Shown here: positions 4,401 to 6,931 of the stretch, one piece after another
Position numbering within the stretch: the first letter of the stretch is position 1
How the letters are laid out: every line of letters starts with the position of its first letter
Source: Styela clava
Taxonomy: Eukaryota
Length of the DNA: 64,000 bases
NCBI RefSeq assembly: GCF_964204865.1
Contig: NC_135254.1
Span: 11,098,001 to 11,162,000 of the forward strand
Reading direction: 5' to 3'
The notes under the pieces: generated by a model
The model's input: the letters and a program-made list of their open reading frames with translations, nothing else
Told to the model about the DNA's origin: nothing
Database searches by the model: none
Made by a program: the position numbers and the translations under genes

Positions 4401-6931
4401 ATCTTTAAATTACATTAAGTTGATTGCATGTTTGACGTGATGAGAAAATTATTTTACAAATTTACGAAGATATTTTAAATGAGTAAGGTTCAATTTTAGA
4501 AGTAAGCTATTACCAAAATTTAGCAGTGAAAGAAAAGGAAGACTATAGCGCAGAAGTAAAAAGTAATTGCGTATAGTCATCTATGCCAATGTTAGTTAAA
4601 TAACTGGTTGCTAGATAATAAAAAAAACTCCGATAACAGTTTGTAGAGCAATGAGTTTAATCTATCACTGATAAAAAATTTTACCATAAATTACACAAAT
4701 TTATCATTGATTGAAATTTTTATTACTAACCAAAAATCTCAAATATTGAATCATCATGAGCTCCTGCAGTTGAATCGTCATCATTTGTAATTTCTGGGGA
4801 AATAGAAATTGTGTAGGCCTACTTATTGAATGAGAAAATTGGCACAGAAACAATAGGTCAATAAAGTAGCTTATCACTAAACGATTAAAAACATGGTACA
4901 CATTGCAATGTAGAGTCATTTATTTTTTATGTTGAATATATTTATATTTTTGAGAACATTTTTGAATAAATAAATATTTTTTATATATATTCATAGCGAC
5001 ATAGATTGTAAAACTAAATCAAAAATAGTCTATCCCAAAATGAGTAATGCAATTAAGTTTTGGAGATTTGCTTTCACTTCTTTTCAAATCTAAAATAACT
5101 TTTGATACGATCAACATAGAAGAAGAAAATCATAATTTCACAATTTATAATATCTAACTCAAATGGAACTTGAAATATCACACAGAATTTTTCATAAATA
5201 GCAAACCTTCGTCTCCACAACCATAAACTTGAATATCATTAATAGGGAGGCCATTGCTATCCAATACTTTCACTTGAATTGCTGTTGTTTCGACGTAGAT
5301 CGGGAGTTCAATTTTTTGCATGCCATACGTGTCGCTGATGCCGTCAAATACCTTAAAAATAAATGTTTATTTTATGTGTCGATAGGATGTTTCAAAATCT
5401 GTTTCTCAAGTAACTTAATTTATCATTTTTAAAGTTCTTCATTAGAGAAGATACTACTAATTGACTTATTAAATGAATATAGTAATAAACTGAATTGTAA
5501 AGAAAAAATATATTACCATAGGGTTTCCGTCCCCATCATTGAAGGGCACAAATGATCCAGAAAGCAATTTGAAAAGAATTTCAAATTCAGAAGAACAATC
5601 TCTTTGAATCGTTATACTTGATACAACCTCAAGATTTGTCAAATCAAACTGAAATGTTCAAATAACTAACATTTTATTTCAGCTTAAAATTTATGCATGC
5701 GTCTCGGATAAAATGGGCATAGTAAAGTAATTCAATATATACTCAGGCTCCATATTATTAATCGCTTATCATTACAGCGGAAGCATTAGTCATCTCGAAC
5801 TAATGAGATGTATTTCAAAAGAATACTCAAAGGGAGACTATACGTTATAATTATTGCATTTTATTGATTAGAATAACCAACATTTAATGCTCAAAAGTTC
5901 ATGCAATCTTTTTTGTATTTGATCTTACACATCTATCGAACTGGCTCTTTCTGCTCGGGTAAATGAGCTTTTCAGAATAGTTTTTCATAATTATCAAAGT
6001 TGGTCTTGAACGGGCTAAGAGTTTAATGTACTTCAATAACTAAATAATAAGTACAGTTAGTTGAATAACAGAAAATAATTATCGAAAAATTTCGCGAAAA
6101 ACCTGAGAATATCTCACGTCACACTACTAGAGCTTCGCGGCGCATAGTTATATATTTACACAGGTTTATACTTGTACAAAGCTTAAATGATAACAAAAAT
6201 TTATGATTATAATACAATAAAAAATCAAACCGTTATCTGATTTCCGAATTGATTTTCAACATCAAGTTCCGGTGGACCGTATGGTGTTGCAGTTTGACCC
6301 TCCAGGCGAACGTATTTGTCACAAGCTAAGGTATGTAAGATTGAAATTAGATTTTATAATTTATGTGATTTATACTAATTGACTTTGTAGCAATCAGGTA
6401 TTCAGAGGATGTTTGACTTCATTATTATCCAAAAATTGTTGAGGGAACTTTTGAGACGTTCAAACCAGTTCAATACTTTTCAGTTATGTTAAAAAAAATT
6501 CATACGTAACTATAATATACGCAATCTATTCAAATATTTTGAAATAAATTATCAGCCACTCTTGCAATTTTAGGAGATAGTTAAATATATAGAAGGATGA
6601 AAGTATGTACACACTTGTGCATTCATTAACATCCAAAGGATCGACATCTTCTCTCTCGGTTCCTCTGGCAATATCATGGCAATAATCAGATGGAGGTCTA
6701 GCCTTGGATGCCGAAATCATAAATAAAACTAAAAATATATCAAAACGAGTATTATTCAAATATAACTATAGTGAAATATTGGTATCATTTTAAGATTGGA
6801 CTCGAAATATTAGTTTATATATACAGTATGGTCTGTTTACGCATTTTAAAACTGGCGAATAATAATTTAATAATTTCATTATCATATGATATGATCATTA
6901 TTAAGCACTTACTCAAGATTGCGAGCTTCAT
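1449..6931 (-). CDS. Astacin (M12A) metalloprotease 1: signal peptide, discoidin/F5-8C-like module, antistasin-like remnant, prodomain, astacin domain, (PK)n linker, ShKT
   Basis: 13 GT-AG exons splice in frame: 6913-6931, 6615-6728, 6231-6325, 5517-5648, 5207-5351, 4731-4793, 4174-4290, 3654-3827, 3201-3361, 2650-2785, 2385-2548, 1884-1989, 1449-1552. Motifs: MKLAILILFMISASKA signal; LYEGDI pro-motif; [26 protein letters not shown] zinc site; SIMHY Met-turn; C-terminal CKDRASNCSELTNYCSYAMVKRYCRKTCEIC* (ShKT). Confidence 0.92.
1884..1925 (-). repeat. Coding hexanucleotide-unit repeat encoding a PKPKPKPKPKP linker
   Basis: Plus strand ggtttcggctttggtttcggttttggtttcggtttt; translates to TKPKPKPKPKPKP between the astacin and ShKT domains. 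Confidence 0.8.
4011..4120. mobile_element. Short palindromic MITE related to family A, intronic
   Basis: Arm ggtgtccccgaagtatgtgcaccaaaatgcgcacaacctga is inverted-matched by tcaggttgtgcgccatcttggtgcacacattatttgagcgcc; shares the agtatgtg.accaa.atg motif with family A. Confidence 0.7.

What the first reader, a model, noticed from the sequence alone, without database searches (positions are those of the whole stretch)
5207..6325. Discoidin/F5-8 type C-like module inserted into an astacin prodomain by exon shuffling, with the paralog showing the empty state
Seen: the two astacin genes match exon for exon, with identical 19-nt first coding exons, 63-nt linker exons and 136-nt zinc-site exons. 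Gene 1 alone has three extra exons (95+132+145 = 372 nt, a phase 1-1 cassette) encoding ...NQITFDLTNLEVVSSITIQ...FEILFK...GNPMVFDGISD...LPIYVETTAIQVKV...IQVYGC. Known: this pattern resembles F5/8C (WLQVDL..V..V.TQG...VF.GN.D...PI.ARYVR...ELYGC), and astacin accessory domains are usually C-terminal. Inference: a binding module upstream of the activation site would target the zymogen to glycan, lipid or collagen and be shed on activation.
Basis: partly seen in the sequence, partly recalled or inferred. Interest (0 to 1): 0.7.

Follow-up and report, generated by a model that had tools for sequence, protein, structure and literature searches.

The report
Worn discoidin domain in protease precursor
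This animal gene encodes an otherwise ordinary secreted zinc protease whose transcripts include three extra exons for what is likely a badly eroded discoidin binding domain in the part predicted to be cut off on activation; a neighbouring sister gene keeps an intact copy in the same slot, so it is likely an uncommon but ordinary case of exon shuffling followed by decay.

Summary
The three exons (95, 132, 145 nt; phases 1-0-0-1) are spliced into the astacin gene 1 transcript in 4 of 4 runs laid. Gene 2 joins exon 2 straight to the linker in 2 of 4 runs. The insert does not pass Pfam F5/8C exon by exon and matches an independent profile only weakly (9.8 bits, 0 of 1000 shuffles). The strongest evidence lies outside the window. 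A third paralog, about 24 kb before it, carries a Pfam-passing F5/8C domain in the same slot with the same intron phases and is gene 1's likely sister (support 94/93; alternatives not rejected). Gene 1's copy has no tryptophan, lacks the second cysteine pair, and is shorter where discoidin ligand loops lie. It is likely a degenerate discoidin domain, gained once and eroded in gene 1. It lies upstream of the predicted activation site, so shedding is likely. Ligand targeting is plausible for the intact paralog and doubtful for gene 1. A lectin domain before an astacin prodomain has a published precedent. New variant of a known kind; modest interest.

The parts
6913..6931 (-). Gene 1 coding exon 1 (19 nt, start of predicted signal peptide)
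   Evidence: joint in 3 of 4 runs
6615..6728 (-). Gene 1 exon 2 (114 nt): rest of predicted signal peptide plus a 22-residue two-cysteine segment found only in genes 0, 1 and 2 among the regions scanned
6231..6325 (-). Cassette exon A (95 nt, phase 1-0): N-terminal third of the degenerate F5/8C domain, with Cys46; 16 codons shorter than in gene 0
5517..5648 (-). Cassette exon B (132 nt, phase 0-0): middle of the degenerate F5/8C domain; 5 codons shorter than in gene 0; carries an extra Cys94
5207..5351 (-). Cassette exon C (145 nt, phase 0-1): C-terminal part of the domain with Cys165; same length as in gene 0
4731..4793 (-). Acidic linker exon (63 nt, phase 1-1)
4174..4290 (-). Antistasin-like cysteine exon (117 nt, phase 1-1); 4 cysteines against 6 in genes 0 and 2
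3654..3827 (-). Exon with the YEGDI latency-type motif and the predicted activation site (after Arg258)
1884..3361 (-). Astacin catalytic domain exons (3361-3201, 2785-2650 with the zinc motif, 2548-2385 with SIMHY, 1989-1884 with a Pro-Lys linker)
   Evidence: Pfam Astacin E 3e-20 and 1.3e-9; joints
1449..1552 (-). Terminal exon: one ShK-like domain and stop
   Evidence: Pfam ShK E 1e-6
13652..17947 (-). Gene 2: paralogous astacin-ShK gene of 10 coding exons without the cassette

Best explanation
The three exons are spliced into a secreted astacin-ShK protease transcript and likely encode a degenerate F5/8 type C (discoidin) domain that was likely gained once, as a phase-1 exon cassette, by the ancestor of gene 1 and its sister gene 0, and that would be shed with the pro-region on activation. 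Shown: splicing, phases, position before the YEGDI motif, an intact domain in the same slot of gene 0, and absence in gene 2. Inferred: cleavage after Arg258 by a trypsin-like protease removes the N-terminal 258 residues; the ancestral domain tethered the inactive precursor to a surface ligand; gene 1's copy still folds around its terminal disulfide but has lost the canonical ligand trench, so it now most likely serves as a folded, non-canonical pro-region module rather than a classical glycan, lipid or collagen binder.
For: Splice joints in 4 of 4 runs. Gene 0 (G000:C5:11065750 to about 11074250, + strand) has a Pfam PF00754 match over the cut-off (29.4 bits) as three exons of 143, 147 and 145 nt, phases 1-0-0-1, between a 114-nt exon 2 and the linker; gene 1 has 95, 132, 145 nt and a 114-nt exon 2. 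The first internal intron sits at the same place in genes 0 and 1 and, judged by eye, in only 2 of 31 other distinct F5/8C loci inspected; one of these, a Link-type module gene, has the 1-0-0 pattern. A profile of 23 genome domains without gene 0 aligns to insert residues 31-121 end to end: 9.8 bits, 0 of 1000 shuffles reach it (maximum 6.4), reversed sequence no hit; HHalign probability 73.8%, score 31.6 against a maximum of 27.9 in 200 shuffles and 16.0 in 80 beta-rich control windows. Terminal cysteines are kept (46, 165); gene 0 has four (46, 82, 178, 186), matching the two disulfides described for the DDR2 discoidin domain, the second at the floor of the ligand trench (PMC2807035, passages). 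Genes 0 and 1 are sisters at 94/93 and 91/88. Signal peptide and antistasin-like module share one open frame in 3 of 9 outgroup paralogs, which leaves no room for a cassette. Displayed allele differences in the cassette: 4 of 6 synonymous, against 6 of 9 elsewhere in the gene (from 40 of 133 rows shown).
Against: 0 of 3 cassette exons match PF00754 at E up to 10, and 0 of 2 tested match a solved structure. The profile scores are weak, the HHalign margin over shuffles is small, and the profile does not cover exon A. Identity to gene 0 in the cassette is only 16-27% per exon. The whole insert was not folded; exon B alone gave a low-confidence model with a helix where strands are expected (pLDDT 59), exon C a two-strand hairpin (pLDDT 70). 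Tree support is below the starred level, the tool warned that long branches meet, and the alternatives were not rejected (p-AU 0.053 and 0.060; 0.10). Gene 0 is a model from splice signals; no transcript was laid on it. No binding or processing data exist.
Confidence: 0.65

Rival explanations
1. Same origin, but gene 1's domain still binds a ligand through a remodelled surface and targets the precursor; its divergence reflects a new specificity after duplication.
For: The cassette is kept in frame and included in the main contig of 4 of 4 runs; displayed variants are mostly synonymous (4 of 6); the paired cysteine loss leaves the terminal pair; exon C keeps its length.
Against: No tryptophan, second cysteine pair lost, deletions in the segments that carry loops L1-L4 in DDR2. 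The antistasin-like module of gene 1 has also lost two cysteines, pointing to general relaxation of the pro-region. The variant sample is tiny.
Confidence: 0.2
2. The domain was gained before genes 0, 1 and 2 split, and gene 2 lost the symmetric cassette; gene 2's empty state is then derived. This concerns polarity only and is compatible with decay in gene 1.
For: Clades (gene 1, gene 2) and (gene 0, gene 2) are not rejected. Genes 1 and 2 are adjacent, on the same strand, with equal linker length; gene 0 is on the other strand.
Against: Both trees place genes 0 and 1 together (94/93, 91/88); catalytic identity is 56% for that pair against 50-51% for pairs with gene 2; both have a 114-nt exon 2.
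Confidence: 0.25
3. The insert is not a discoidin domain but another beta-rich module (for example Ig-like) or drifted linker sequence.
For: Only Pfam hint is Big_1 at E 0.078 over 22 residues; the 8 hits of the representative search are repeat proteins, three of the four scanned being bacterial Ig-like or adhesin-like.
Against: Those hits cover one hairpin and sum over repeats. Same slot, phases, intron positions, terminal cysteines and last-exon length as gene 0's intact F5/8C; 80 windows from those same proteins score at most 16.0 against the F5/8C profile versus 31.6.
Confidence: 0.07

Closest known systems
ShKT-astacins, MEROPS M12A (for example Ciona ShKT_CIOIN F6R0J7 and Halocynthia 2ShKT_HALRO D2CMF2 in PMC9848320 Table S1)
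   Same: Signal peptide, pro-region with FXGDI-type motif, astacin domain with zinc motif, family glutamate and SIMHY, C-terminal ShK domain.
   Different: Those entries are listed as S-PRO-CD-ShKT; here the pro-region holds a two-cysteine segment, a discoidin-type module and an antistasin-like module (258 residues before the predicted mature start).
[quoted passage not shown]
   Same: A lectin-type binding module placed before the astacin prodomain.
   Different: C-type lectin rather than discoidin; different C-terminal domains.
[quoted passage not shown]
   Same: Astacin, ShKT and FA58C in one protein.
   Different: FA58C is C-terminal and would stay on the active enzyme.
F5/8 type C / discoidin domain, Pfam PF00754 (DDR2, retinoschisin, CASPR2)
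   Same: Gene 0's copy passes the Pfam cut-off, has four matching cysteines, and its middle exon finds retinoschisin and CASPR2 in the PDB (E 0.012-0.071). Gene 1's copy aligns to it.
   Different: Gene 1's copy fails Pfam, lacks tryptophans and the trench cysteine pair, and has shorter loops.
AEBP1/CPXM-type proteins (recalled, not checked)
   Same: Discoidin domain N-terminal to a zinc-peptidase-type domain.
   Different: M14 carboxypeptidase fold, not a metzincin precursor.

Membership tests
Astacin (M12A, PF01400) | HEXXHXXGXXH followed by the family glutamate | tested here: met
   [12 protein letters not shown] in exon 2785-2650; Pfam E 3e-20
Astacin (M12A, PF01400) | Met-turn SIMHY with tyrosine switch | tested here: met
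   SIMHY in exon 2548-2385
Astacin (M12A, PF01400) | Pro-segment FXGDI aspartate-switch motif | tested here: met
   YEGDI at residues 231-235; FESDI in genes 0 and 2; motif defined in PMC9848320
Astacin (M12A, PF01400) | Zinc-dependent proteolysis and activation by pro-segment removal | not testable with these tools
   Cleavage after Arg258 is inferred from a basic residue followed by small residues at the aligned site in genes 0, 1, 2
F5/8 type C (PF00754), gene 1 insert | Pfam score over the 28.2-bit cut-off | tested here: not met
   0 of 3 exons hit; the spliced insert could not be scanned against Pfam; own profile 9.8 bits
F5/8 type C (PF00754), gene 1 insert | Terminal disulfide pair | tested here: met
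   Cys46 and Cys165 align with gene 0 Cys46 and Cys186; the bond itself is inferred from DDR2
F5/8 type C (PF00754), gene 1 insert | Conserved tryptophans, TQG-type motif and trench disulfide | tested here: not met
   0 tryptophans against 3 in gene 0; second cysteine pair absent
F5/8 type C (PF00754), gene 1 insert | Eight-stranded beta-barrel fold | tested here: inconclusive
   Only single exons were folded
F5/8 type C (PF00754), gene 1 insert | Shared intron positions and phases with bona fide domains | tested here: met
   1-0-0-1 as in gene 0; 1-0-0 as in the L029 gene
F5/8 type C (PF00754), gene 0 domain | Pfam score over the cut-off | tested here: met
   29.4 bits for one exon frame; exact exons 25.3 and 16.1 bits separately; 90.9 bits on the independent profile
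Antistasin (PF02822), cysteine exon | Six-cysteine pattern and Pfam cut-off of 21.2 bits | tested here: not met
   Gene 2 18.3 bits, gene 0 11.9 bits, gene 1 no hit and four cysteines; antistasin-like only

The most novel reading that the evidence does not exclude
A family of astacin precursors uses a shuffled-in discoidin domain as a disposable address label: the inactive enzyme is parked on a surface ligand and released by activation, and the two sister genes here have diverged to different addresses, gene 1 through a remodelled tryptophan-free binding surface.
Probability: 0.2. Interest if true: 0.5.

Novelty: new variant of a known kind. Interest (0 to 1): 0.3.

Why it matters
Astacin accessory domains nearly always follow the catalytic domain. 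In the 147-entry table of PMC9848320 only three rows (two proteins) place a domain before it, and the single FA58C entry is C-terminal. Three neighbouring paralogs showing intact, eroded and empty states give a tidy natural series for testing what a binding module does on a precursor. The mechanism (symmetric phase-1 exon shuffling) and both domain families are well known, so the wider significance is modest.

Tried and rejected
Protein database searches with single exons found neither this protein nor orthologs (0 hits; 8 repeat-protein hits judged chance), so no ortholog from another species was examined; this is weak evidence given the short queries. The protein atlas gave no result. PDB sequence searches with exons B, C and the pro-exon: no hits. 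Single-exon AlphaFold models are not informative for the domain fold, so no fold search was run on them. Cassette skipping: no skip joint among 15 of 55 joints displayed; contigs drop rare forms, so skipping is neither shown nor excluded. The depth step in run X7 coincides with a contig break inside exon C, not with an exon boundary. No listed run is on record as RNA. A scan of 180 kb around nine outgroup paralogs found no intact F5/8C exon (best 10.8 bits on a short opposite-strand stretch, against 33-37 for gene 0 exons), but gene 1-like exons score 3.3 or less and would be missed; 5 of 9 N-termini were not resolved. Only 12 astacins with the 136-nt zinc exon were modelled, of about three dozen zinc-site exon matches. 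For the profile, 2 of 21 intron-containing loci were dropped because an exon was not found; for the second tree 5 of 12 rows were left out as long or lacking the pro-exon. The idea that the antistasin-like module inhibits the activating protease was set aside for gene 1: the residue after its second canonical cysteine is glutamate, lysine only in gene 0 (reactive-site position recalled, not checked). No close donor for gene 0's domain was found (best 40% identity; none for its first exon). Paper searches showed no listing describing a discoidin domain before an astacin prodomain; I saw only listings and abstract starts except for PMC9848320 (section 2.1, passages, supplement file 2 parts 1-2 of 3) and PMC2807035 (passages). 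Subscription papers and InterPro architectures were not searchable.

Full report
Setting. The window is AT-rich animal DNA, G000:C5:11098001-11162000 of a 377-Mb assembly. The gene content looks tunicate-like to me from recall; I did not establish the organism.

Observation. Gene 1 lies on the minus strand in 13 coding exons from 6931 to 1449 and gives a 509-residue open frame. Contigs of four runs from three studies lack exactly these introns; the four joints linking the cassette to exon 2 and to the 63-nt linker appear in 4 of 4 runs. Gene 2 (17947-13652) has ten exons, and its exon 2 joins the linker directly in the 2 of 4 runs that cover it. Both genes also have an antistasin-like cysteine exon before the latency motif (18.3 bits in gene 2, below the cut-off).

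What the insert is. On its own the evidence is weak: no cassette exon hits PF00754 (0 of 3) or the PDB (0 of 2). A genome search with PF00754 gave 154 exon matches, one over the cut-off at C5:11067214, a few kb upstream of an astacin match at C5:11070757-11072092. This is a third paralog, gene 0, about 24 kb before the window. Its model has a 19-nt first exon, a 114-nt second exon, three F5/8C exons of 143, 147 and 145 nt in phases 1-0-0-1, a linker, a six-cysteine antistasin-like exon, the astacin domain and three ShK-like domains. No transcript was laid on it. Its cassette occupies the same slot as gene 1's. The first internal intron falls at the same position in both, a position seen by eye in only 2 of 31 other distinct F5/8C loci inspected. 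A profile from 23 genome domains, gene 0 excluded, aligns to insert residues 31-121 at 9.8 bits; 0 of 1000 shuffles reach this and gene 0 scores 90.9. HHalign gives 73.8% and a score of 31.6 against maxima of 27.9 (200 shuffles) and 16.0 (80 control windows). I put common origin with F5/8C at about 0.9. It is not filed as a current family member, because the score and core-motif tests fail.

State of decay. The gene 1 copy has no tryptophan (gene 0 has three), keeps the terminal cysteines, lacks both partners of the second pair and has one extra cysteine. In DDR2 that second disulfide forms the floor of the ligand trench, which is built by loops between strands 1-2, 3-4 and 7-8 (PMC2807035, passages). 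Gene 1's exons A and B, which by alignment carry the first two groups of loops, are 16 and 5 codons shorter. Cassette identity to gene 0 is 16-27% per exon against 56% in the catalytic exons. The frame is nonetheless intact and the few displayed variants are mostly synonymous (4 of 6), which fits continued constraint but is a very small sample. Folding single exons did not help: a hairpin for exon C and a low-confidence helix for exon B, the latter mildly against the reading.

Polarity. In a tree of 12 catalytic domains genes 0 and 1 are sisters at 94/93, and at 91/88 with five rows removed and the pro-exon added. Alternatives are not rejected (p-AU 0.053-0.10) and long branches meet. No intact F5/8C exon was found near nine outgroup paralogs; in three, signal peptide and antistasin-like module share one frame. 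So the domain was gained within this local cluster; a single gain before genes 0 and 1 split is favoured (about 0.75) over loss in gene 2.

Mechanism. Astacins are held latent by a pro-segment aspartate in FXGDI and activated by cleavage that frees a buried N-terminus (PMC9848320 section 2.1). In gene 1 YEGDI lies at 231-235 and the aligned cleavage site follows Arg258. The insert (45-168) is far upstream, and the catalytic domain's four cysteines are the usual even set, so shedding on activation is the likely outcome (inferred). The simplest account is that the ancestral domain tethered the precursor, that gene 0 may still do so, and that gene 1 retains a folded remnant without the classical site. 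A changed binding specificity remains possible (0.2).

Comparison and novelty. The review's table lists FA58C once, C-terminal, in amphioxus, and a C-type lectin before the prodomain in Saccoglossus. My paper searches found no description of this arrangement, within the limits of the library. An unchecked AI note from another genome (e1-9091192) reports the same discoidin, antistasin-like, astacin, ShK order, so the arrangement may not be confined to this genome; I did not test it. Verdict: real, a new variant of known kinds, produced by a textbook mechanism. Interest 0.3.

Noticed in passing
G000:C5:11065750 to about 11074250 (L032, L033): Gene 0: astacin with an intact F5/8C domain and a six-cysteine antistasin-like module before the latency motif, and three ShK-like domains; the better subject for testing precursor targeting.
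   Followed up: yes
window 4174-4290 and 16915-17028; paralogs on C5 and C18: An antistasin-like cysteine module lies upstream of the catalytic exons in 10 of 12 paralogs modelled; gene 1 has lost two of its six cysteines.
   Followed up: partly
window 17448-17555: Exact 54-nt tandem duplication in gene 2 exon 2; the one contig spanning it (run X7) has a single copy. Allele difference or assembly artefact; both are in frame.
   Followed up: partly
window 11712 to about 11070, minus strand: Three-exon gene between the astacins encoding an 80-residue peptide with a predicted signal peptide and a lysine-rich, probably amphipathic body; spliced in 3 of 4 runs with high contig depth. Resembles antimicrobial or small apolipoprotein-type peptides by recall only.
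   Followed up: partly
window about 20960-26160, minus strand: Multi-exon cysteine-rich gene with galaxin-like repeats (Pfam PF24748, best E 9e-9) and a Pro/Gly/Arg-rich tail.
   Followed up: partly
G000:C5:7319932-7320075 (L043): Astacin paralog with glutamine in place of the catalytic glutamate and lysine in place of the family glutamate; likely inactive.
   Followed up: no
G000:C18:18835076-18837190 (L060, L061): Small gene joining what looks by recall like a Link module to an F5/8C domain with the same internal intron positions as the cassette.
   Followed up: partly
window about 37700-41300, minus strand: Exons that look by recall like glycine amidinotransferase; Pfam gave no hit on two fragments.
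   Followed up: no
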